Shown here: positions 1,190 through 58,260 of the stretch, piece by piece | How positions within the stretch are numbered: the first letter of the stretch is position 1 | How the letters are laid out: each line of letters starts with the position of its first letter | Virus record (IMG/VR): IMGVR_UViG_3300018089_000002 | Coordinates: 1-61,928 of that record | Origin: a virus | Taxonomy: Duplodnaviria; Caudoviricetes | Reading direction: 5' to 3' (one strand) | DNA length: 61,928 nucleotides | Notes under the pieces: model-generated | What the model was told of the DNA's origin: nothing | Database searches by the model: none | What the model saw: the letters and a program-made list of their open reading frames with translations, nothing else | Position numbers and translations under genes: made by a program

Positions 1190-3039
1190 TGAAGCATCTT
1201 AGTGATATCAACGTGCAACTCGTCACGGACATCGACACCGCTTCCGAGTGCGCGCGCTGGCTCTCCACCCTCGATCGCGTTGCGATCGATACTGAAGGCA
1301 CTGGCCTGTCTCCGGAACGCGATCACGTCCGACTCGTGCAGTTCGGTGACCTCGATCAGGCGTACGTCGTTCCGCTCGAGGGTGTCACCTTCGACAGGCA
1401 GCCCGCCTACGCACAGGCGAAGGGCTGGGGCGGCTTCGCTGTCGACATGCTGACCCGGATCGCAGAGGATCCGCACGGCCCGCGCATCGACATGCAGAAC
1501 GCTCCGTACGATCATTCGATGATCCGGGGCACGCTCGGTGTCTTCCTGCCGCGCCATCGGATCGAAGATACCCGGATCGCAGCGCACGTCCTGGACTCGC
1601 GCACCAGGCTCGGGCTCAAGGAGCTCGCGAAACTGCACGTCGACAAGAACGCGGATCTCGGGCAGGACATCCTGCACGATGCGATGAACCCGACGACCGG
1701 ATGGAACTGGGCGACGGTGCCGATCGGGTTCAAACCCTTCTGGTTCTATGCCGGACTGGACACCATCCTCACGTCCCGCGTTGGTGACAAGCTCTTGCCT
1801 GCCGTCCGGCTGGACGCTCCGCGTTCGTACGGTCTCGAGATGGCCGTCCAGTGGGTCTATGAGGACATGGAGCGCAACGGCGTCCTGCTGGATCGTCCGT
1901 ACACCGAAGAGTTTCTCGCACAGCTTGAACAGCACGTCCGCGACCTCGAAAAATGGTGCATGCAGACCTATCGGTTCTACCCAGGGTCGGACACCAAGGT
2001 CACGGCACAACTGCTCAAGGATGGCGTTCATCTCACCAAGCAAACCCAGTCCGGCGCCGCGTTGTCGATCGACAAGGAAGTCCTCACAGGCGTCGATCAT
2101 CCGCTCGCACGTGGCGTGCTCGCGCGTCGTCAGTCGATGAAGGTTGCCGGCTATCTGCGTAGTTATCTTGATTTCGCGGACGAGCACAACATCATCCATC
2201 CGAGCATCAACACCGTTGGTGGGGTTTCAAAAGACCCCTTCAACCCGGGTGGAGGCAATGGCGTGCGCACTGGCCGTTCTTCGATGACGAAGCCCAATCT
2301 TCAGCAGGTACCGACCAGGACCGAGATGGGTGCGAAGGTTCGTCGTTGCTTCATCCCGGGCCCCGGCCACACCTGGGTGTCGGCGGATGCCTCACAGATC
2401 GAGTCCAGGATCCTCGCGCACTACTCGAAGGATCCCGGTCTGATCGCGGCGTTCAAGTCCGGAGAAGACTTCTTCGTCGCGCTCGCAAAGCAGCTTTTCC
2501 ATGATCCTGATTTCCAGAAGTCCGATCCGCGACGCTCGACGCTGAAAAACGGTGTCTACGCGAAGATCTACGCTGCCGGCCCCGACAAGTTCGCCAAGAC
2601 TGCTGGCGTCTCCGTGCAAGAAGCACGAGAGTTCATGCAGTCGTTCGATCAGCGGTTCTCCGGAGTCCCTGCGTTCGTACGCAGAATCTCTGAACTAGCA
2701 CGGCAGCGCGCCGAGCAAGAGGGAGCACCGTACGTCCGATCGCCGTTGACCGGGCGCCGCCTGGTCGCTGACGAAGACCGTCCTTACACCGTGGTCAACT
2801 ACCTGATCCAGGGTACGGCCGCCGAGCTCCTGAAGATGATGAACGTCCGGCTTGCTGACAAGGGACTGACTCCGTGCATGAAGTTTCCCGTGCACGACGA
2901 GATAAACATGTCCGTCCCGAACGACCAACTATCCGAAGTGCTCGCTACGATCAAAGAGACATTGAACGACGATGAGCTGCTGTCGGTTCCCGTCGAGTGG
3001 GAGATCGGGACCGGGGAGAACTGGGGAGAGGCACACTGA
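1189..3039 (+). CDS. polA: family A DNA polymerase with 3'-5' exonuclease
   Basis: Exo motifs DTEGTG, NAPYD, YAGLD; TGRSS..PNLQQ; motif A DASQIE; motif C VHDE; GTG start overlaps upstream stop (TAGTG). Confidence 0.95.
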   Translation: MKHLSDINVQLVTDIDTASECARWLSTLDRVAIDTEGTGLSPERDHVRLVQFGDLDQAYVVPLEGVTFDRQPAYAQAKGWGGFAVDMLTRIAEDPHGPRIDMQNAPYDHSMIRGTLGVFLPRHRIEDTRIAAHVLDSRTRLGLKELAKLHVDKNADLGQDILHDAMNPTTGWNWATVPIGFKPFWFYAGLDTILTSRVGDKLLPAVRLDAPRSYGLEMAVQWVYEDMERNGVLLDRPYTEEFLAQLEQHVRDLEKWCMQTYRFYPGSDTKVTAQLLKDGVHLTKQTQSGAALSIDKEVLTGVDHPLARGVLARRQSMKVAGYLRSYLDFADEHNIIHPSINTVGGVSKDPFNPGGGNGVRTGRSSMTKPNLQQVPTRTEMGAKVRRCFIPGPGHTWVSADASQIESRILAHYSKDPGLIAAFKSGEDFFVALAKQLFHDPDFQKSDPRRSTLKNGVYAKIYAAGPDKFAKTAGVSVQEAREFMQSFDQRFSGVPAFVRRISELARQRAEQEGAPYVRSPLTGRRLVADEDRPYTVVNYLIQGTAAELLKMMNVRLADKGLTPCMKFPVHDEINMSVPNDQLSEVLATIKETLNDDELLSVPVEWEIGTGENWGEAH

Positions 3040-3767
3040 TGCAAAAGCCAAGCCTAAGGCTTTGCTATAAATCTGATCTTGCCTTTGTGTATCATGGTGA
3101 CTGCATGGAACTCATTCCAATAATGCAGAAAGGTTCTGTAGACTTACTGGTAACTGATCCTCCATACGGAATAAACTATAAGAGTAAAAATTTCGACAAA
3201 ATTGTTGGAGATAACGAAGAAACTGATGTAGCGAGTATGCTTGGTGCTGCAACGCGCGTTCTGCGTAATCACAGACATGTTTATGTGTTTGGTTTTCGTT
3301 CAGAGCAGTTACAGCATAAAATGAAGCTTGGTGGCACAACTCAACTGATTTGGGATAAAGAGCAAATAGGCAAAGGTAATATGTCCTCTCTGTGGGGACC
3401 GAGCCACGAAATAATATTGTTCGGGGTGCACGCAAAGTCTGCGGCTAATCGTGCATCTGGTGACGGTAATCTGTCTGCACGTCTACGAAAAGGTAACGTG
3501 CTGCATGTAGCCAGGAAAAATTCTATAGCAGTCGTTAATCATCCAACAGAAAAACCTGTTGAATTAATGCGGCAACTTATAGAGTCATCTTCCCGTCTTG
3601 GTGAGGTGGTTTTTGATCCATTCGCCGGCGTATGCTCAACGGCTGTGGCTGCTATTGTCACAGGCCGTAAAGCAATCGTCTGTGAAATTGACTCAAAGTA
3701 CGTCGACATCGGCATACAACGGATTAAGCAGGCTGAACAACTATGGAGATCAATAGCAGCGCTATGA
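3039..3767 (+). CDS. N6-adenine/N4-cytosine DNA methyltransferase (beta class)
   Basis: DPPY precedes HPTEKP and DPFAG; TGATG coupling to polA; visibly AT-rich. Confidence 0.92.
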   Translation: MQKPSLRLCYKSDLAFVYHGDCMELIPIMQKGSVDLLVTDPPYGINYKSKNFDKIVGDNEETDVASMLGAATRVLRNHRHVYVFGFRSEQLQHKMKLGGTTQLIWDKEQIGKGNMSSLWGPSHEIILFGVHAKSAANRASGDGNLSARLRKGNVLHVARKNSIAVVNHPTEKPVELMRQLIESSSRLGEVVFDPFAGVCSTAVAAIVTGRKAIVCEIDSKYVDIGIQRIKQAEQLWRSIAAL

Positions 3768-3836
3768 TAGGAATACTTCTCACCGTTCTTCTGTCTCTCG
3801 CCACGATCCCGCTTGTTGTCGCTGATTGGAAACGCA

Positions 3837-4343
3837 GTGATCACCATCGGTTGCGATCCCGGAAAATCGTTCGGTCTGGCCATGCTCGGCACCACGAGCC
3901 TGATGTACGTCTATCAGGGCGACGCTGAACAAGGTCTGCGCGCACTGCACAACATCTTGGTGTTTCAGACTGAGATAGCGGCACACAAACCCAACTACCC
4001 GATTGCTGTCGCGATCGAGCAGTTCACGATCACGCCGGGCACCGGGCGGAGGCCAGGCGCCTCCCAGACGGCCCGGCTCGCCGGCCGGGCCGTGGAGGTA
4101 GCCCGCAGCTTCCCGAGTGCCCTGGTGGCGCTCCAGAGCCCGGCAGATGCCGCCCGGGCGTGGCCGTCCCCGTTGCTGCGGCGCCTCGGGCTCTGGGTCA
4201 GCCCCGGCCTGATCCGGGGTACCGACCCCGGAGCCAAGGACGCGGACGACGCGAACTCAGCTCTCCGCCATGCTCTGCTCTGGTTGCAGCGAAACCGGCC
4301 CGAGATGATTCAAGAGATGATGCGCGGGGTTGACATCGTGTGA
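3837..4343 (+). CDS. RuvC-like Holliday junction resolvase
   Basis: IGCDPGKSFG, IAIEQF and DADDA acidic motifs. Confidence 0.75.
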   Translation: MITIGCDPGKSFGLAMLGTTSLMYVYQGDAEQGLRALHNILVFQTEIAAHKPNYPIAVAIEQFTITPGTGRRPGASQTARLAGRAVEVARSFPSALVALQSPADAARAWPSPLLRRLGLWVSPGLIRGTDPGAKDADDANSALRHALLWLQRNRPEMIQEMMRGVDIV

Positions 4344-47603: not shown

Positions 47604-48068
47604 CTACCTCAGAACCTTCGCACCCTTGCGCTGGTTGTGCTTGCCACACAGCAGTTGAATGTTGCCAGGATCCAGGCTCGATCCGCCGAGCGCGTACGGA
47701 TAGATGTGATCATAGTGCAGGTTCTCGGTCGTGCCGCACTGCCGGCACCGTCCGCCATCGCGCAGGGCAACCTCAATCTTCACAGGCTGCGGTATGGTGC
47801 GTGACTGCTGGCGTCGCAGCACGCGCTGGACTCGAGCCTTCCGGGCAGCACGCCAACGAGCAACGCGGTAGACGACGTAGGACACAGGCACAGCTCCCGC
47901 GCCGGCCTCGACGGCAATGCTGCTCGAGCCGATCGCGACGGCCGGCGCTGCGACGAACACCACAAAGGATCGCGCAAGCACGAACTTGCCGTGTGGTGTG
48001 ATTTTGATCGGCTTGCGACGGTGCCAGTTGATCGAAACCATCTGGTTTGTGCGCTTGTGACGAGTCAC
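47604..48068 (-). CDS. HNH endonuclease with N-terminal hydrophobic segment
   Basis: RDGGRCRQCG..DHIYP..GG..NIQLLC..HN. Confidence 0.85.
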   Translation of the reverse strand: MTRHKRTNQMVSINWHRRKPIKITPHGKFVLARSFVVFVAAPAVAIGSSSIAVEAGAGAVPVSYVVYRVARWRAARKARVQRVLRRQQSRTIPQPVKIEVALRDGGRCRQCGTTENLHYDHIYPYALGGSSLDPGNIQLLCGKHNQRKGAKVLR

Positions 48069-48366: not shown

Positions 48367-50127
48367 CTATCGCTCGATCATCCACACGAACAGTTCTTCG
48401 CGGTCGTACAGCCGCTGTCCGCTCGGGCCGTCGCCGCGCTCTGCCGGCTCCGGAAAACCGTTACGCTGACTCGCCTTGCGAACTGCCTCTAGGCTCATGC
48501 CCTCCAGTGGTCCGCCTGCCTGCACAGCTTCTGCAAGGCTGAGCAGATCCGCATCACGCTCTGCCGGAAGAGCCTTCTGCCCTGCACTGGACAGTTCGAA
48601 CGTATCCAGTCCGTGTGCGCTCAGCAGTTCAGGCACGTCTCGCGGAATCATCGTTGATTCGTAACCGAACTTCTCGCGTGCCTGCACAGCGATGTCTCGC
48701 AATTCGCCCGATGTGAGGTAGGGGAATTGCACAATTCGAGCGGTGTCCTGCTCGATCAGGTGGACGCGACCGCGCACCTTCGGCTTCTTCGGCGCTGGCT
48801 TGACCTCAGGCGCGAGCAGCTTCCACTGCGCAGGGGATCCCTTCAGGAACCTACCGCCGAAGCACTCCCGGCCGGCAGAGCCACCCGTCACAGCCGCGAG
48901 TCCGTACTGCGCAGCACAGATCACGTTCTCCCGGCAAGCACGACCGGTGAACAGAACCTTCGCAAGTGCACGGATCGCAGGGCTCTTGATCGGCGCACCC
49001 TGCGGCTTGATCTCGCGCCAGTAGTCCTGCAACTGGTCGGCAAGCATGTTGGCCTCTTCGACTATGACCAAGATGCGAGGCAGGTTGTCACAGGCGTGTT
49101 CGTCATTCGTCTGCTCGATGAACGTGTATCGGTCATCCGCTATCTTGGCCGCTGCAAGACATGCCTCGTGCATCTGCTGTGGAGTCGAGCAGTAGACAAC
49201 ACCCGGCTGATTGCGCAGATGCATCAGAGAAGTACGCTTCGGATCGAGCACGATCACGAGTGCGCCTTCGAGATACTGCAATTGCGCGACCAGATAGCCG
49301 ATGAAAGTTGACTTTCCTGCACCAGTTGTGAGGCTGAGCAAGATGTGTGGTTCGGTCGCGAGCGACAACGTAACAGGCTTCTCTCGGATGCCGAGACCAA
49401 CAACGACCTCATCGGCCTTCAGACCATCGAAGAACGGCAGTACGTCGCTGTATCCGACCTTCTTCGGTGGCTGGAGTGCGGGACGAATCAACACGTGCGG
49501 CTCCTGCCCTGCTAATTGGAACGTGAACTCCGGATCTTCGAGCGCAAGCCGAGACGTCGCGATATCCGTAATCAGTTTGCGCGTGGCCGTATCGCACTTG
49601 TTGTCAAGTGGGAGCTTGATGCAGACCTGCGCGTCCGGGTTCTTGCCGAGGTCGCTCGGAACGCTGATCCAAGAGTTCGGCTGTGTCGCGACAGGCCAGC
49701 CAACGACTCCGCGCAGACTGTACGCGAGCGGACGGACACGCTCTCGGTAGTTCTTCCAATCGCGGATCACGCGATACAACAGGAACGAACCGCCAACCGC
49801 GCAGACACCGAGCGCGATGCCGTAGGCAATGACAATCGTCCGCGTGTGCCCGGTCCACCACTGGTAGAGCGTCCAGAGTGCGACGAACGCGCACACCTGC
49901 CGAACGACTGAGCGCTTCCAGCCTGGCCACATCATCCACGCGGACGGGACCTGACGGTACTGATCGATGTGCGCACTTGCCGGCCGGATGAACCCGGAAT
50001 CAGTCATCCGCTTCCCGAGCGGACGTCCGGAGAACCAGCGGTACAGAAGACGCCAGATCGTCGTCTTCGGCCCTAGGTTGTTCAGCAGTTCTCTGGTGAG
50101 CTGCTGGCTGTCCTTGCCTGCCATCAC
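48367..50127 (-). CDS. traB: FtsK/SpoIIIE-family TraB-like DNA translocase
   Basis: two N-terminal TM helices; PHILL..TGAGKST, LDPK, VIVEEAN, TGRA..AAQ; C-terminal HTH. Confidence 0.85.
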   Translation of the reverse strand: MMAGKDSQQLTRELLNNLGPKTTIWRLLYRWFSGRPLGKRMTDSGFIRPASAHIDQYRQVPSAWMMWPGWKRSVVRQVCAFVALWTLYQWWTGHTRTIVIAYGIALGVCAVGGSFLLYRVIRDWKNYRERVRPLAYSLRGVVGWPVATQPNSWISVPSDLGKNPDAQVCIKLPLDNKCDTATRKLITDIATSRLALEDPEFTFQLAGQEPHVLIRPALQPPKKVGYSDVLPFFDGLKADEVVVGLGIREKPVTLSLATEPHILLSLTTGAGKSTFIGYLVAQLQYLEGALVIVLDPKRTSLMHLRNQPGVVYCSTPQQMHEACLAAAKIADDRYTFIEQTNDEHACDNLPRILVIVEEANMLADQLQDYWREIKPQGAPIKSPAIRALAKVLFTGRACRENVICAAQYGLAAVTGGSAGRECFGGRFLKGSPAQWKLLAPEVKPAPKKPKVRGRVHLIEQDTARIVQFPYLTSGELRDIAVQAREKFGYESTMIPRDVPELLSAHGLDTFELSSAGQKALPAERDADLLSLAEAVQAGGPLEGMSLEAVRKASQRNGFPEPAERGDGPSGQRLYDREELFVWMIER

Positions 50128-50690
50128 GGCACTCGCACAAGTTCAGCGACTTCAGCCGTACCGTCCGGGCTGATGACCGTAGCGGTGACGACAGGACCGG
50201 GCGCAGCCATGCTCGCGATCGGGGGTGGAGCGAGCGGCGCGACCGGACGCTGACGACGGACCAGGAAACGCGTCGCGAACCGATCGAGCGAGGCAGGCGC
50301 GAGGAACGAACCGACAATGATCGTGGTGACCGCTGCGTACTCGATTGCCAGGATCCCGAGTAGCAGCCAGTCGCCGGCAGAGGTGTGCAGAGGCCACACG
50401 AGCCACGCGAGCAGCGGGATGCCGACGTACCCGAGCAGCGCAACCGCGTTGATGAATCGGGCGCCGCCGCTCAGATACGCGTCGAGCATGTGCACGCCTC
50501 CGCCGAGGTGACGGCCGACACGCATGTCTCCCGTGCTCAGGTTCCTGGTTCCGTTGTCGTGTCGCCGATTCCGTAGCCGACCTGCACGGACGTTCTTCGT
50601 GCGGAGTACCGAACCGATGAGAACGACCATGAACAGCACCACGGGAACCGGGGTGTTCAGAAGTGCTGCGGGATGCGAAAGGATAGGCAC
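50124..50690 (-). CDS. multi-pass membrane protein of transfer module
   Basis: three hydrophobic segments; stop overlaps the traB start. Confidence 0.7.
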   Translation of the reverse strand: MPILSHPAALLNTPVPVVLFMVVLIGSVLRTKNVRAGRLRNRRHDNGTRNLSTGDMRVGRHLGGGVHMLDAYLSGGARFINAVALLGYVGIPLLAWLVWPLHTSAGDWLLLGILAIEYAAVTTIIVGSFLAPASLDRFATRFLVRRQRPVAPLAPPPIASMAAPGPVVTATVISPDGTAEVAELVRVP

Positions 50691-50818
50691 CGCTGGCCTC
50701 CAAGCTGGGATTGGATGTCAGAGCAGAGCCTCGGTCACGAGCCGGGGCTCTGCGTTTTCAGTGCCTACCATACGCGCTTCTTGAATGCTACAGGGGAACG
50801 ATCACTCTCCGTTACTAC

Positions 50819-50896
50819 GGTATACCGCTGTCCCTGGGACAACGCCTGCATATCCCCAGGAAACTGAGTTCTGGATATCGAGGACAGCGGTATACC
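50819..50896. promoter_or_regulatory. 15-bp inverted repeat, operator-like
   Basis: GGTATACCGCTGTCC...GGACAGCGGTATACC upstream of the tra operon. Confidence 0.6.
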
Positions 50897-50912: not shown

Positions 50913-51437
50913 TCAGTCACATCTCTGTGCCATCCACGCTTCAAGATCAGATTGCCTGTACAGCCGCTGTCGGTGCCTGTCCGAGCCTCTGCCCACCGGG
51001 CGCGGAAACCCGGCCCTTTGGCTCGCCTTCCTAGCGGCTTCGAGCGACAGACCGTGCAGCGGACCTCCCGTATGACAGGCAGTCGATATGCCTATCAGTG
51101 TGTCAGCGACAACATAGGTCTTGAGTTCTTCTCCCTTGTGCTCTCTACGAAACTTACGTAGCCACGTGGCAGCATTGTTCTTCGGCTTCTTTGTGTGCGC
51201 TTTTTCGAGTTCTTCGATGAGAACATGTGCTACATGTGCATTAGTTTTTGCGGCGTGCAGTACGCGAATAGGATCCCAATCAAGAAGAGATCTAGCTCTC
51301 TTGTCTGAGTTACAGCGTGCACAAGCAGGGACAAGGTTTTCCTCTACATCTTGCCCATCGAGACAACGTGCTTTTATGTGATCTTGTTGTATTTGCACGC
51401 TAGATTCACCACAGTAGACGCACGTCCCGTGTCTCAT
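50913..51437 (-). CDS. HNH endonuclease fused to a TraB-like C-terminal HTH
   Basis: CVYCG..DHI..NLVPACARCN; C-terminus matches the TraB tail. Confidence 0.85.
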   Translation of the reverse strand: MRHGTCVYCGESSVQIQQDHIKARCLDGQDVEENLVPACARCNSDKRARSLLDWDPIRVLHAAKTNAHVAHVLIEELEKAHTKKPKNNAATWLRKFRREHKGEELKTYVVADTLIGISTACHTGGPLHGLSLEAARKASQRAGFPRPVGRGSDRHRQRLYRQSDLEAWMAQRCD

Positions 51438-51673
51438 CGCGCAGTCTTGCTCTCGTTCCAGCGCTTACGCGCTTCATCTCGCTGCGCTTCCTGCTCGTCT
51501 AACTCTGCTTTTCGCTCAGATTTCAGATCGTTCGTGATCTGATCGGTATTGACCACCTTCTCCAACATGCGGCCGATACCATCGGAACGAGAGACGCCAA
51601 GAGCTGTGCACAGAAGATCGATACGCTCGATGAGATCGGGTTCTACCTTCGCAGTGACAATCTGCTTCGACAT
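51434..51673 (-). CDS. ribbon-helix-helix (CopG-like) regulator
   Basis: IVTAKVEPDLIERIDLLC..GVSRS; extended -10 TGTGGTATACT upstream. Confidence 0.7.
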   Translation of the reverse strand: MSKQIVTAKVEPDLIERIDLLCTALGVSRSDGIGRMLEKVVNTDQITNDLKSERKAELDEQEAQRDEARKRWNESKTAR

Positions 51674-51717: not shown

Positions 51718-52746
51718 TCAGGTCACAGAGCGTAGTTTCGTGCTGGTCTGGCCCTGCTCCTGTCGCGCCGTGCGCAGCCTGGCACGGATCGTGGAGTCTC
51801 CGACCGTGGTCCCCGGGCGGTTGTCCATGATCCAGGCGTGGACCGCTGGTACGTCGACCTCCGGGCCGATGCCGAGCGCTTCGAGCGCGTCGTTGATCGC
51901 ACTCGCCTTGCTGCCTGTGCTCGAGCGCGCGCCGGCCGGACGCTGGCGCTCCGCTCGCTGCTCGCTGCTCTGCTCGGCGCTCGCGCTTGCCGATCGCTGA
52001 GCGCTCGGGTCGTTCTGCAGCTCAGCGCTCGCAGCGCTGAGCGCGCTGGTGATGTGCTGCTCGAGCGCTAGCGCTCGCTCAGCGCTGCTCAGCGCTCGCT
52101 GCTCGCCGGCAGGCTGCTCAGCGCTCAGCGCTGGCGTGCTCAGCACCTCGGCGCTGACCGCTGGCGCCCGCTCAGCGAGCGCTCGATGATCATGCTTGCT
52201 CAGCGCCAGCGCTGGCAGGTCAGCGCTCGCCCGAGCGAGCGCCAAGCGAGCCAGCACGGCATCGCTCAGCGTCCGCCACGCAGAGCCGCCGTGAAGTGCC
52301 CAGGTCAGCGCGCCGAGCACGGGCAGAGCGGCCGGCGTACGCCCGAGCTGGCGCAAGCGCTCGCGGTGCGCCGCTCGCCCGCTGAGCTCGAGCACGAGCA
52401 CGGCAGCGATCGGCGGCACGGCGTACATGGTGCGAGCGCTGGCGCTGGCGTGCCCGCTCAGCGCTGCGTGCTGCGTGTTGAGCCAAGCGCTGGCGCTGGC
52501 GAACGCCAGCGTAGTCAAGCGCGCGAGCGCTGCACCGTCACCACGCAGCGCTGCCGATCGCTGGTGGCTGGCGCTGACCACCGCCACGCCGTCGAGCGTG
52601 GCGCTGACGATGAGCGCCAGCGCTGGCGGCAGGCCGTAGCGGATCCCGAGCGCATCGAGCGACCACCAGGACACCGCGAGCGCCGCGAGGCAGACAGCGA
52701 ACGTGGCGATCCCGGCCGACAGGGATGCGAACTTCGAGGAGAGCAT
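51718..52746 (-). CDS. DUF2637/Spd-like membrane protein with C-terminal HTH-like region
   Basis: four TM helices, SWWSL..G..DG..SAWLN..H..VPP pattern; low-complexity linker. Confidence 0.75.
   Translation of the reverse strand: MLSSKFASLSAGIATFAVCLAALAVSWWSLDALGIRYGLPPALALIVSATLDGVAVVSASHQRSAALRGDGAALARLTTLAFASASAWLNTQHAALSGHASASARTMYAVPPIAAVLVLELSGRAAHRERLRQLGRTPAALPVLGALTWALHGGSAWRTLSDAVLARLALARASADLPALALSKHDHRALAERAPAVSAEVLSTPALSAEQPAGEQRALSSAERALALEQHITSALSAASAELQNDPSAQRSASASAEQSSEQRAERQRPAGARSSTGSKASAINDALEALGIGPEVDVPAVHAWIMDNRPGTTVGDSTIRARLRTARQEQGQTSTKLRSVT
51870..52625. repeat. dense AGCGCT palindromic repeats inside the DUF2637 gene
   Basis: about 20 AGCGCT by hand count, often as CTCAGCGCT or GAGCGCTC. 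Confidence 0.75.
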
Positions 52747-52776
52747 CGTTTCTGTTCCTTTCTCGTTTTCCTTGTG

Positions 52777-52998
52777 TCAATTGCTCTGGCAGACCGGAAT
52801 CAATATACCTTTTCCTGCTGGAATCATCACGAGATGTCCGTGCGGACAATATGAGTTACCCGAACCAACTGTCACGGACAGTATCGCGCAGAGTAGAACA
52901 ATGAGTCCAACGATAAATATGGCACATCCAATAAAACCTGACCAATCGTATACAAATCGCTCGAAACGTGTTCTGCCGAAGACATCACGCTGTTTCAT
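52777..52998 (-). CDS. small membrane protein
   Basis: TM helix; GAGGAG RBS. Confidence 0.6.
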   Translation of the reverse strand: MKQRDVFGRTRFERFVYDWSGFIGCAIFIVGLIVLLCAILSVTVGSGNSYCPHGHLVMIPAGKGILIPVCQSN

Positions 52999-53024
52999 CG
53001 CTCCTCATTCCTTTCTCCGATTGA

Positions 53025-53309
53025 CTACCTGCTAGCCTGGATCCGTTCCAGTTCTTCGTCAAGCGCGTATTGCAGGATGTGATCCCGCAGACGAACCAGG
53101 GAGAATCCGTCGTTGCCGTGCCGATGATCCACCAAAAGAAGAGTGGCGAGAGCTTGCGTGAGCAGCTCATCGTCGGACAGCGCAACGGTGTGAGGGCAGA
53201 CCAGAGACATGACGTCGTCTTCGAGCGTGCCGGCAAGGACGCCGAGATACTCGCTCGCACCGTGCCAGAGTTCAACGCGAAAATCCATGTTCATCCCTTC
53301 ATCGTTCAT
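53025..53309 (-). CDS. hypothetical protein
   Basis: extended -10 TGTGGTAGACT upstream. Confidence 0.55.
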   Translation of the reverse strand: MNDEGMNMDFRVELWHGASEYLGVLAGTLEDDVMSLVCPHTVALSDDELLTQALATLLLVDHRHGNDGFSLVRLRDHILQYALDEELERIQASR

Positions 53310-57475: not shown

Positions 57476-57803
57476 GTCCGGACCCCGCCGCCCCATGGAC
57501 ACCCCCGACTCTAAAGAGTCGGGGGGTTGTGTCCATGGTTCGGGCCGGCGTGGCTGTCCATGGTGCGTCCATGGTGCGTGTCCATGGTTTGACCTGCGGT
57601 TTCGTGAAAAACCGGTGATCTTGTCCATGGAGTGTCCATGGTTTCGTCCATGGACACGAAAAGATGATCTTGTCCAAGGTGGTGTCCATGGTGCGTCCAT
57701 GGTCGCCGGCTCCCCGATTTCCGTGTTTCACCAGGTCACATACCTACGTGGGTACCAGCGCGAAACGATCTTGTCCGCCGGGTGTCCATGGTGTGTCCAT
57801 GGA
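57476..57803. repeat. GTCCATGG iteron-like array, candidate replication origin
   Basis: 12 CCATGG plus one CCAAGG, GATCTTG sub-repeats and a hairpin near 57503-57526; intergenic, close to the primase-helicase gene. Confidence 0.75.
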
Positions 57804-57831
57804 CGATTAGTTACCAAGTAACTACGCATAG

Positions 57832-58260
57832 TCACTGTTCCACTTCGTCTAAATCTGCTTCATGCCTGTCTAGAAGTGCGCGTCCAAGTTCTCCAGGCCA
57901 TCCACCGCAAGCAGCCATCAGTTGTGAACCCTTGTGGTTACCCGTAGTTAGGTTGAAGTGAAAGCCACAAAGTGAACACCACATGAAGATACGAACAAAT
58001 CCACCTCTTGTGCGCAACTGATTATCGTCTTCGTAATCGTCGTGGTCTGTACGTACTTCTATGCTGTTTTCGAGAGTTTCGATACCACAGTATTCACCAC
58101 AAGAAGGGCAGCATAGATTCCCACGAGCAGTAAACACAGGCATCTGGACCAGTTCCTCCGTACTACGCCGTTCACTCTCCCTGCTCACTTTGTCACGTAC
58201 AGTCTTGTCTTCTGCAGCCGTTACCGCAGCGTGTGCCCATTCGATCATTTCATCAGTCAT
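57832..58260 (-). CDS. hypothetical zinc-binding protein
   Basis: CPSCG, CSLCG, HKG motifs. Confidence 0.65.
   Translation of the reverse strand: MTDEMIEWAHAAVTAAEDKTVRDKVSRESERRSTEELVQMPVFTARGNLCCPSCGEYCGIETLENSIEVRTDHDDYEDDNQLRTRGGFVRIFMWCSLCGFHFNLTTGNHKGSQLMAACGGWPGELGRALLDRHEADLDEVEQ

What the first reader, a model, noticed from the sequence alone, without database searches (positions are those of the whole stretch)
50913..51437. HNH nuclease fused to a copy of the translocase's own C-terminal DNA-binding domain
Seen: TraB tail GGPLEGMSLEAVRKASQRNGFPEPAERGDGPSGQRLYDREELFVWMIER aligns without gaps to the HNH tail GGPLHGLSLEAARKASQRAGFPRPVGRGSDRHRQRLYRQSDLEAWMAQR (29/49 identical by hand count). 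The 14-mer GTACAGCCGCTGTC is shared at DNA level. Known: the TraB C-terminal winged helix selects the clt repeats of the DNA to be transferred. Inference: nuclease and pump may recognise the same site, so the HNH could cut or linearise concatemeric phage DNA for transfer, drive homing of the module, or destroy competing elements. I know of no described equivalent.
Basis: partly seen in the sequence, partly recalled or inferred. Interest (0 to 1): 0.87.

Follow-up and report, generated by a model that had tools for sequence, protein, structure and literature searches.

The report
Nuclease that borrowed a DNA pump's tail
A phage nuclease carries the same small DNA-binding end-piece as the phage's plasmid-type DNA pump, most likely because a mobile, foreign nuclease gene fused onto a resident copy of that end-piece, as an unrelated nuclease has demonstrably done in a soil bacterium.

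Summary
**Observation: confirmed.**
- The 174-aa HNH protein (50913-51437, -) and the 586-aa TraB/FtsK-like translocase (48367-50127, -) end in homologous ~60-aa tails: 31/59 identical, E=6e-18.
- Both tails fold as the same MerR/Xis/gpNu1-type winged helix.

**Interpretation: partly supported.**
- The tail is the family-typical C-terminus of these translocases.
- The HNH copy is an old, diverged one (dS 1.26, omega 0.41). It is barely closer to its own translocase than to foreign ones.
- The shared 14-mer is within chance.

**New here.**
- The gene is a compositional chimera. The HNH part has GC3 0.41, in the lowest 1.2% of windows; the tail has GC3 0.63. The switch falls at the domain junction.
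- The fusion is a database singleton and is absent from 36 related viral loci.
- An independent analogue exists: Endonuclease VII + translocase tail in Plantactinospora.
- There, DNA comparison with two sister genomes shows a cassette (replacement tail + stop + nuclease) inserted exactly at the translocase body/tail junction, so the nuclease took over the resident tail.

**Best reading (0.55).** A mobile, homing-type His-Me nuclease that acquires its targeting domain from the translocase. Shared site recognition is plausible but untested.

The parts
50913..51437 (-). HNH-tail gene, 174 aa. Its ATG overlaps the stop of the upstream RHH gene (ATGA).
   Evidence: ORF; Pfam HNH E=7.9e-9; PHROG HNH families down to 1.2e-16; overlap read.
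51099..51437 (-). HNH nuclease domain plus linker (codons 1-113), compositionally foreign.
   Evidence: GC 0.472 and GC3 0.407, against genome GC 0.592 and GC3 0.71-0.73 in neighbouring genes. It lies in the lowest 1.2% of 6159 windows of 339 bp. The GC switch falls at about 51090-51120.
50916..51098 (-). Tail: MerR-type winged helix (codons 114-174) with resident-like composition.
   Evidence: 31/59 identity to the translocase tail. AF2 pLDDT 90.4, beta-alpha-alpha-beta-beta-alpha. Foldseek hits CarH, CarA, NmlR, BldC, gpNu1 and RdfS with probability 0.9-0.98. GC 0.618, GC3 0.629.
48367..50127 (-). TraB/FtsK-like membrane-anchored dsDNA translocase, 586 aa.
   Evidence: PHROG FtsK/SpoIIIE-like E=1.6e-11. 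Pfam FtsK_SpoIIIE 22 bits, just under the cut-off of 24. Relatives on 66 Streptomyces plasmid records are annotated Tra protein, pRL2-11, DUF87 or FtsK. One hydrophobic segment at residues 97-115.
48370..48546 (-). The translocase's own C-terminal winged-helix tail.
   Evidence: AF2 pLDDT 85.3 with the same topology. Same fold matches, CarH probability 0.99.
50819..50896 (.). Perfect 15-bp inverted repeat (arms 50819-50833 and 50882-50896) in the 222-bp gap directly downstream of the HNH-tail gene. A candidate protein-binding site; function unknown.
   Evidence: Its core GGACAGCGG also occurs in the translocase tail-coding DNA. The 8-mer GACAGCGG occurs 11 times against 4.3+/-1.9 expected, but local clustering gives p=0.065. 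The RNA fold z-score is only -1.73.
51434..51673 (-). RHH (CopG-type) regulator gene, translationally coupled to the HNH-tail gene.
   Evidence: Pfam RHH_1 E=6.6e-5; ATGA overlap; GC3 0.60.
50124..50690 (-). 188-aa membrane protein. Its stop overlaps the translocase start (GTGA).
   Evidence: three hydrophobic segments and the overlap; no Pfam or PHROG family.
51718..52746 (-). DUF2637 membrane protein, the recurrent neighbour of this translocase family.
   Evidence: Pfam DUF2637 E=1.2e-9. It also sits directly upstream of the translocase in Plantactinospora L037 and occurs in 6 of 138 flanking ORFs from 22 viral loci.
47604..48068 (-). Second HNH gene (154 aa) without a tail. Listed for contrast; normal composition.
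   Evidence: Pfam HNH_5 E=4.8e-8; GC3 0.729; no tail hit.

Best explanation
The HNH-tail protein is a free-standing, homing-type (selfish or mobile) His-Me-finger nuclease. Its DNA-targeting module was obtained by fusing a horizontally acquired HNH cassette onto a resident tail-coding segment of a TraB/FtsK-like translocase.

Shown:
- The two tails are homologous, fold alike, and belong to a DNA-binding fold class.
- The gene is a compositional chimera whose break coincides with the domain junction.
- The fusion is sporadic.
- A different nuclease family (Endonuclease VII) made the same fusion in Plantactinospora through a precisely bounded cassette insertion at the translocase body/tail junction. 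That cassette also supplies a replacement tail to the translocase.

Inferred:
- The tail directs the nuclease to the sequence class that translocase tails of its clade recognise (clt-like repeats), and the HNH nicks or cuts nearby.
- The likely outcome is spread of the cassette into nuclease-free alleles, or damage to competing elements. An obligatory step of DNA transfer is less likely.
For: 1. Homology and fold: 31/59 identical, E=6e-18. Both AF2 models (pLDDT 90.4 and 85.3) have the same beta-alpha-alpha-beta-beta-alpha topology. Both hit the same MerR-type winged helices, several of them solved on DNA: CarH-DNA 5c8e, NmlR-DNA 5d8c, BldC-DNA 6ama.
2. The tail is native to the translocase family. 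It is conserved in P0005-P0008. Of 11 hits among 1.84 billion representatives, 2 are the window's own HNH protein and translocase, 7 are translocases or their fragments, and 2 are multi-repeat HTH_17 proteins. A profile search gave 176 hits, almost all about 580-aa translocases.
3. Chimera: the HNH part has GC 0.472 and GC3 0.407, the tail GC 0.618 and GC3 0.629. The HNH part lies in the lowest 1.2% of 6159 windows, and the switch falls at the junction.
4. Sporadic distribution. The only relative found besides the protein itself, in 5.8 billion clusters, is an HNH-only one. No second tail on a nuclease was found in 36 related viral loci. Among 138 flanking ORFs from 22 loci, HNH scored 1 and Endonuclease_7 scored 0.
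5. Independent analogue. P0105 and P0103 are PF02945 + tail. In L037 the nuclease start overlaps the translocase 3' end.
6. In that analogue the translocase body is 97% identical to P0061, but its tail is 45-55% identical to other translocase tails. The nuclease's tail is 79-87% identical to those tails.
7. Sister genomes G212 and G203 have a plain translocase. Their tail-coding DNA matches the nuclease's tail-coding DNA at 87-89%. The insert lies between two GGGGAC copies at the first tail codons.
8. Only 1 of 201 genomes of that family sample holds the fusion.
9. P0103 and P0105 share the nuclease and linker (57/112 identical). Their tails are only 34/62 identical to each other, yet 75-87% identical to different translocase tails. 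This indicates repeated capture or conversion.
10. omega=0.41 between the window's two tails indicates that the fold has been kept in both.
Against: - No close relative of the window phage is available, so a presence/absence polymorphism at the HNH site could not be shown for the window itself.
- The window's arrangement differs from the Plantactinospora one. The HNH-tail gene lies upstream of the translocase, separated from it by a 222-bp gap and a membrane-protein gene. It is not inserted in the translocase's 3' end. How the tail segment came to lie there is unexplained.
- The HNH-tail gene is translationally coupled to an RHH gene inside a co-oriented operon-like block. That would also fit a domesticated function.
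- The two tails are marginal reciprocal best hits, which a co-evolving functional pair would also give.
- No target site is known, and the candidate shared motif is statistically weak.
- The Foldseek E-values (0.03-0.4) are not significant on their own. Pfam HTH_17 is below threshold: 14.5-16.4 bits against 27.
- Only 120 of the 176 profile hits were listed, so further fusions may exist unseen.
Confidence: 0.55

Rival explanations
1. Dedicated processing nuclease of the transfer module. HNH-tail and translocase bind the same clt-like site. The nuclease nicks, linearises or debranches the DNA so that the pump can load or pass it.
For: - The recognition helices are nearly identical.
- The gene sits inside the co-oriented module, with coupled start/stop overlaps.
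- The tails are marginal reciprocal best hits.
- In both natural cases the nuclease-tail gene lies within about 1 kb of a translocase with a DUF2637 neighbour.
- Endonuclease VII is a branched-DNA resolvase family (family name PF02945; the function is recalled).
- clt sites can abut the tra gene's end, as in pWTY27 (passages read in PMC3583192). An inverted repeat lies right after the HNH-tail gene.
Against: - Absent from 36 related viral loci and from the 22-locus census, from sister genomes G212 and G203, and from 200 of 201 sampled genomes. The pump evidently works without it.
- Streptomyces TraB is reported to transfer unprocessed double-stranded DNA, with TraB alone sufficient (passages read in PMC4447253).
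- The HNH half is compositionally foreign.
- In Plantactinospora the nuclease's tail is only 48% identical to its neighbour's tail.
Confidence: 0.2
2. The tail serves mainly as a protein-docking module. It recruits the nuclease to the same membrane partners (Spd-like or DUF2637 proteins) that bind the translocase tail, without reading a DNA sequence.
For: In pSVH1 the C-terminal recognition domain of TraB (aa 717-772) interacts with Spd198 and with the C-terminal domain of SpdB2 in two-hybrid assays (passages read in PMC4447253). DUF2637 and another membrane protein flank the HNH-tail gene.
Against: The fold class is a DNA-binding one, with many members solved on DNA. Homology of this tail to the pSVH1 TraB domain was not tested. 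No interaction was computed here.
Confidence: 0.12
3. A chance by-product of recombination with no function: a decaying HNH fused to a leftover 3' fragment of a lost second translocase gene.
For: It is a singleton. It is a compositional chimera. The tail split is old.
Against: - The ORF is intact with a complete HNH motif and Zn-finger cysteines.
- omega is 0.41 over the tails.
- The tail model is confident, pLDDT 90.4.
- The same architecture persists between P0103 and P0105 at about 50% identity.
Confidence: 0.13

Closest known systems
Free-standing HNH homing endonucleases of phages (T4 MobA-MobE; intron-encoded I-HmuI)
   Same: An HNH catalytic domain joined to a separate C-terminal region taken to be the DNA-binding domain; sporadic distribution; insertion into or beside host genes, sometimes splitting them (passages read in PMC2988022).
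   Different: Here the DNA-binding module is not a dedicated endonuclease module. It is the family-specific tail of a neighbouring host-element protein, the translocase. In the Plantactinospora analogue the cassette also brings a replacement tail, so the invaded gene stays whole. The split nrdA described in that review is instead left in pieces. No cleavage or homing was tested here.
Streptomyces TraB (pSVH1) and TraA (pWTY27) conjugative dsDNA translocases with a C-terminal wHTH that reads clt repeats
   Same: Membrane-anchored FtsK-like ATPase with a small C-terminal winged helix. Relatives of the window's translocase sit on 66 Streptomyces plasmid records annotated Tra, pRL2-11 or DUF87. 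clt recognition by the C-terminal wHTH is from passages in PMC4447253 and PMC3583192.
   Different: Direct homology of this tail to the pSVH1 TraB wHTH was not tested. The predicted fold matches MerR/Xis/gpNu1-type domains. No clt was identified in the window. No nuclease partner is described for TraB, which is reported to move unprocessed DNA.
MerR-type winged helices used as portable DNA-address modules (lambda gpNu1 small terminase N-domain, RdfS and Xis excisionases, BldC, CarH/CarA N-domain; Pfam HTH_17)
   Same: Same predicted fold and size. Weak sequence matches to gpNu1-type terminases, E 0.06-0.24, and to HTH_17, E 0.012-0.044. Related multi-repeat proteins P0010 and P0013 hit HTH_17, E=1.7e-5 and 1.1e-13 respectively.
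   Different: The tail falls below the Pfam gathering score for HTH_17. It forms its own subfamily, tied to translocase C-termini.
T4 endonuclease VII family (PF02945), for the Plantactinospora analogue P0105/P0103
   Same: The N-terminal domain matches PF02945 at E=1.7e-16.
   Different: It carries a C-terminal translocase tail. None of the other 73 genome loci or the 80 viral loci holding EndoVII relatives has such a tail.

Membership tests
HNH endonuclease (PF01844, His-Me finger) | Match to the family model above the curated cut-off. | tested here: met
   36 bits against 21.4, E=7.9e-9, covering model positions 1-46 of 47.
HNH endonuclease (PF01844, His-Me finger) | Catalytic His and Asn residues and Zn-binding cysteines present. 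| tested here: met
   C6, C9, D19-H20, N34, C39, C42 and N43, read from the translation. The assignment of roles is from recalled knowledge of the motif. Activity was not tested.
MerR/Xis-type winged helix (Pfam HTH_17 clan) | Sequence match to HTH_17 above the gathering score. | tested here: not met
   14.5-16.4 bits against a cut-off of 27; 2 of 15 aligned tails reach E<=1.
MerR/Xis-type winged helix (Pfam HTH_17 clan) | beta-alpha-alpha-beta-beta-alpha fold superposable on solved members. | tested here: met
   Both models (pLDDT 90.4 and 85.3) hit CarH, CarA, NmlR, BldC, gpNu1-type and RdfS with probability 0.85-0.99 and TM 0.55-0.63. The E-values are only 0.03-0.4.
FtsK gamma-type winged helix | Fold or sequence match to FtsK gamma domains. 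| tested here: not met
   No FtsK chain is among the rows listed by Foldseek for either model or in the PDB profile search. A weak similarity below those lists is not excluded.
TraB/FtsK-SpoIIIE conjugative translocase (for the 586-aa neighbour) | FtsK/SpoIIIE-type ATPase domain. | tested here: inconclusive
   Pfam FtsK_SpoIIIE 22 bits against a cut-off of 24. PHROG FtsK/SpoIIIE-like E=1.6e-11. Closer relatives P0012 and P0004 carry PF01580. Plasmid homologues are annotated Tra or FtsK.
TraB/FtsK-SpoIIIE conjugative translocase (for the 586-aa neighbour) | N-terminal membrane anchor and C-terminal wHTH. | tested here: met
   Hydrophobic segment at residues 97-115 (simple Kyte-Doolittle scan); C-terminal winged helix.
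TraB/FtsK-SpoIIIE conjugative translocase (for the 586-aa neighbour) | Binds 8-bp repeats of a clt locus and transfers dsDNA. | not testable with these tools
   No convincing clt was found. The candidates are the inverted repeat at 50819-50896, the AGCGCT-rich stretch and the CCATGGAC array.
Free-standing homing endonuclease gene | Presence/absence polymorphism at a precise site between close relatives. | tested here: inconclusive
   Met for the analogue: G001 against G212 and G203, with the insert bounded by GGGGAC. Not testable for the window, for which no close relative was found.
Free-standing homing endonuclease gene | Foreign composition and sporadic distribution. | tested here: met
   (GC3 0.41 against about 0.72).
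Free-standing homing endonuclease gene | Cleaves the nuclease-free allele and is copied into it. | not testable with these tools
   Needs cleavage and co-infection or mating assays.

The most novel reading that the evidence does not exclude
Domain-hijacking nucleases. His-Me nucleases (HNH in this phage, EndoVII in Micromonosporaceae elements) invade TraB-like transfer modules and take over the translocase's own address-reading tail. They then cut DNA that carries the clt-type address of not-yet-invaded or rival elements. The invaded translocase is re-equipped with a divergent tail. The result would be homing and exclusion driven by the very signal that marks DNA for transfer, plus a motor for rapid switching of translocase specificity. 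In the window, the inverted repeat directly after the HNH-tail gene would then be such an address site.
Probability: 0.25. Interest if true: 0.85.

Novelty: new variant of a known kind. Interest (0 to 1): 0.62.

Why it matters
If the tails really read the same class of sites, these fusions would be natural reporters of what TraB-like pumps recognise. A nuclease leaves a mappable cut where the pump's tail binds. That would make the poorly known clt specificity of phage- and AICE-borne translocases directly testable.

The Plantactinospora case also shows a way for a selfish nuclease to invade an essential-domain boundary without breaking the host gene: it brings a spare domain and keeps the old one for its own targeting. 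This is a tidy example of modular evolution of endonuclease specificity. It is also a possible driver of tail diversification among conjugative translocases.

Tried and rejected
1. Shared DNA site. The 14-mer is explained by four conserved residues with common codons.
2. The inverted-repeat core GACAGCGG is enriched genome-wide: 11 against 4.3, with 0 of 100 shuffles reaching 11. But 4 sites within 2.6 kb gives p=0.065. The 15-mer has no further copies within 3 mismatches. I kept it as a lead only.
3. The intergenic RNA fold is unremarkable, z=-1.73. The promoter/terminator scan gave nothing above shuffles.
4. Close relatives of the window. There was no DNA match in the phage collection, no tail-covering protein match in phages, and nothing in viral contigs with single proteins. 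The GGPL-clade alignment found only a distant locus. A metagenome scan with P0019 found nothing. A scan with P0018 returned its own 4.6-kb contig, L222, which has no nuclease or second tail in its short flanks.
5. False leads. H86, a Streptomyces goshikiensis plasmid endonuclease, has no tail and sits in a T4SS-type cluster. G303/L219 is a standalone small winged-helix ORF next to an IS element. The other short tail-bearing proteins that were fetched and read (7 of 10) are translocase fragments; P0079 has an uninterpretable N-terminus.
6. The ESM Atlas showed only HNH-only clusters, with scores of 0.88 or less.
7. The class-level genome census has low sensitivity (15 candidates scored per genome, 4 of 401 genomes hit) and is not used for absence claims.
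8. Complex prediction, read laying and the look-up of sequencing runs were not used. I make no binding or expression claim.
9. Supplementary files of papers were not opened. Table S6 of PMC4447253 (two-hybrid data) may bear on the docking rival.

Full report
**What is there.** The window is a complete 61,928-base virus record of a tailed phage. It has a large terminase, portal, head protease, endolysin and primase-helicase. On the minus strand lies a co-oriented block:
- DUF2637 membrane protein (51718-52746)
- RHH regulator (51434-51673)
- HNH-tail protein (50913-51437)
- a 222-bp gap with a perfect 15-bp inverted repeat
- a 188-aa membrane protein (50124-50690)
- a 586-aa FtsK/TraB-like translocase (48367-50127)
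- a 79-aa protein
- a second, tail-less HNH (47604-48068)

The RHH and HNH genes overlap by ATGA. The membrane-protein and translocase genes overlap by GTGA.

BLASTP aligns the last 59 residues of the translocase to HNH residues 114-172 without gaps: 31/59 identical, E=6e-18. The genome holds only these two copies. The HNH domain passes Pfam's cut-off, with the Zn-finger cysteines and the H/N motif residues in place.

The shared 14-mer is real and in register. However, the tail-coding DNAs are 56.5% identical overall, with dS=1.26, dN=0.52 and omega=0.41. Fourteen of the 31 identical residues use the same codon. One such run at a conserved QRLY is therefore unremarkable. The split between the two tails is old, and both have stayed under constraint.

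**What the tail is.** It is the native C-terminus of a translocase family.
- It is conserved in the distant homologues P0005-P0008.
- A full HMMER scan of 1.84 billion representatives with the HNH tail gave 11 hits. Besides the window's own two proteins, these were seven translocases or translocase fragments and two multi-repeat HTH_17 proteins. No other HNH protein was among them.
- A profile of 15 tails gave 176 hits. The 120 listed are almost all about 580-aa proteins of Micromonospora, Actinoplanes, Plantactinospora and Dactylosporangium, named 'type IV secretory system conjugative DNA transfer family' or 'HerA/DUF87'.
- The same family sits on 66 Streptomyces plasmid records as 'Tra protein', 'pRL2-11' or 'DUF87'.

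AlphaFold models of both window tails are confident (pLDDT 90.4 and 85.3) and share one topology. Both match MerR-type winged helices: the CarH/CarA DNA-binding domain, NmlR, BldC, gpNu1-type small terminases and the RdfS excisionase. Probabilities are 0.85-0.99, although the E-values are only 0.03-0.4. Sequence-level support is weak but points the same way. No FtsK-gamma chain appears in those lists.

According to the passages I read, TraB-type proteins use a C-terminal wHTH to read repeats in clt (PMC4447253; PMC3583192). Whether this tail is homologous to that domain was not tested.

**Is it the translocase's 'own' tail?** Only loosely. The HNH tail belongs to a 'GGPL' subclade of translocase tails. 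It is 31/64 identical to its own translocase, 32/64 to P0012 and 31/64 to P0011. By bit score the two window tails are reciprocal best hits, but by a small margin: 65.9 against 63.2 and 61.2. The predicted recognition helices differ by one residue, and the wing tips differ more.

**The fusion is sporadic, and its nuclease half is foreign.**
- The whole protein has one weak, HNH-only relative in 5.8 billion clusters.
- In 36 related viral loci the tail HMM hits only translocase ORFs (17 loci) and one 72-aa ORF.
- Among 138 co-oriented ORFs within 2 kb of the translocase in 22 of those loci, DUF2637 occurs 6 times and small terminase 4 times. HNH occurs once, HNH_3 once and NUMOD4 twice. Endonuclease_7 never occurs.
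- Codons 1-113 of the HNH-tail gene have GC 0.472 and GC3 0.407. The tail has GC 0.618 and GC3 0.629. Neighbouring genes have GC3 of 0.71-0.73.
- The HNH part lies in the lowest 1.2% of 339-bp windows, and the switch falls at the domain junction.

**An independent analogue shows how such fusions arise.** Two of the listed profile hits are short proteins with PF02945 (Endonuclease VII) followed by a translocase tail: P0105 (192 aa, Plantactinospora sp. WMMB782) and P0103 (183 aa).
- In the Plantactinospora genome (L037, G001) the order is DUF2637, translocase, EndoVII-tail. The nuclease start overlaps the translocase's end.
- The genome has no other tail-bearing translocase.
- The translocase body is 97% identical to P0061 and 84-89% to many Micromonospora proteins. 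Its tail is only 45-55% identical to theirs.
- The nuclease's tail is 79-87% identical to those tails, but 48% to its neighbour's, ranking 124 of 136.
- Two genomes of the same genus, G212 and G203, have a plain translocase and no nuclease. Their tail-coding DNA matches the nuclease's tail-coding DNA at 87-89%. Homology to the G001 translocase breaks just before its tail.
- A three-way alignment places the foreign block (alternative tail, stop codon, EndoVII, linker) between two copies of GGGGAC at the first tail codons.

So the cassette inserted at the body/tail junction, gave the translocase a spare tail, and let the nuclease read into the resident one.

P0103 and P0105 share the nuclease and linker (57/112 identical). 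Their tails are only 34/62 identical to each other, yet each is 75-87% identical to different translocase tails. This points to repeated capture or conversion.

The fusion is rare:
- 1 of 201 sampled genomes of that family
- 1 of 74 genome loci with EndoVII relatives
- 0 of the 80 viral loci kept, out of 322 candidates
- none in plasmids

**Reading.** The window's HNH-tail is best explained as a mobile, homing-type His-Me nuclease that gained its targeting domain by fusing to a translocase tail segment (confidence 0.55). What is shown is homology, fold class, chimerism, sporadic distribution and the mechanistic precedent. What is inferred is that the tail addresses the nuclease to clt-like sites, and that the result is cassette spread or exclusion of rivals.

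Against this, the window's gene order differs from the precedent. No polymorphism could be shown for the window. The gene is also embedded in a coupled operon-like block. The processing-enzyme reading (0.20), a protein-docking role for the tail (0.12) and a functionless remnant (0.13) therefore remain open.

**Comparison with what is known.** Free-standing HNH endonucleases with separate C-terminal DNA-binding regions, and gene-splitting insertions, are described for T4-type phages (passages read in PMC2988022). Taking the DNA-binding domain from the invaded or neighbouring translocase, with a spare domain supplied to the host gene, did not turn up in my searches.
- The TraB, clt, winged-helix and FtsK terms were searched. 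The TraB, phage and HNH terms were searched.
- The endonuclease VII, TraB and AICE terms gave no paper combining them.
- The AICE review mentions only an 'HNH-endonuclease signature' gene in a figure legend (PMC2440964).

These searches cover open-access papers and bioRxiv only.

Noticed in passing
window 57493-57800: Dense array of CCATGGAC/GTCCATGG (15 copies of the 8-mer in the genome, 14 of them here), next to the primase-helicase gene. It is probably an iteron-type origin; a clt role is not excluded.
   Followed up: no
window 51870-52630: The DUF2637 gene is saturated with AGCGCT-containing repeats and palindromes, for example GCTCAGCGCT 8 times. This may be a side effect of Ala/Leu/Ser-rich coding (GC3 0.83) or a binding array.
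   Followed up: no
window 2871-3859, 52721-53079, 57781-58149: The only other regions whose 339-bp windows are as GC-poor as the HNH part. They are possible further foreign inserts or regulatory regions.
   Followed up: no
P0010 (620 aa) and P0013 (525 aa), metagenome/NCBI proteins: Proteins built from 4-6 tandem copies of a tail-like HTH_17 winged helix. Function unknown.
   Followed up: partly
L207:3864-4127 (-), L209:3663-3926 (-), L208:769-999 (+), L210:1862-2107 (+): A conserved small ORF of 77-88 aa just downstream of the Plantactinospora-type translocase, on the opposite strand. It gives weak tail-HMM hits (E 5e-5 to 6e-4) and is possibly a small Xis-like winged-helix protein.
   Followed up: no
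Related viral loci L001-L025: In 4 of 22 loci a small terminase subunit gene lies within 2 kb of the translocase on the same strand. This translocase family is therefore often placed beside the packaging genes of phages, as it is in the window.
   Followed up: no
window 50723-50753: A 13-bp-stem hairpin (GCAGAGCC...GGCTCTGC) in the same intergenic gap. The scan scores it terminator-like only on the + strand, opposite to the genes.
   Followed up: no
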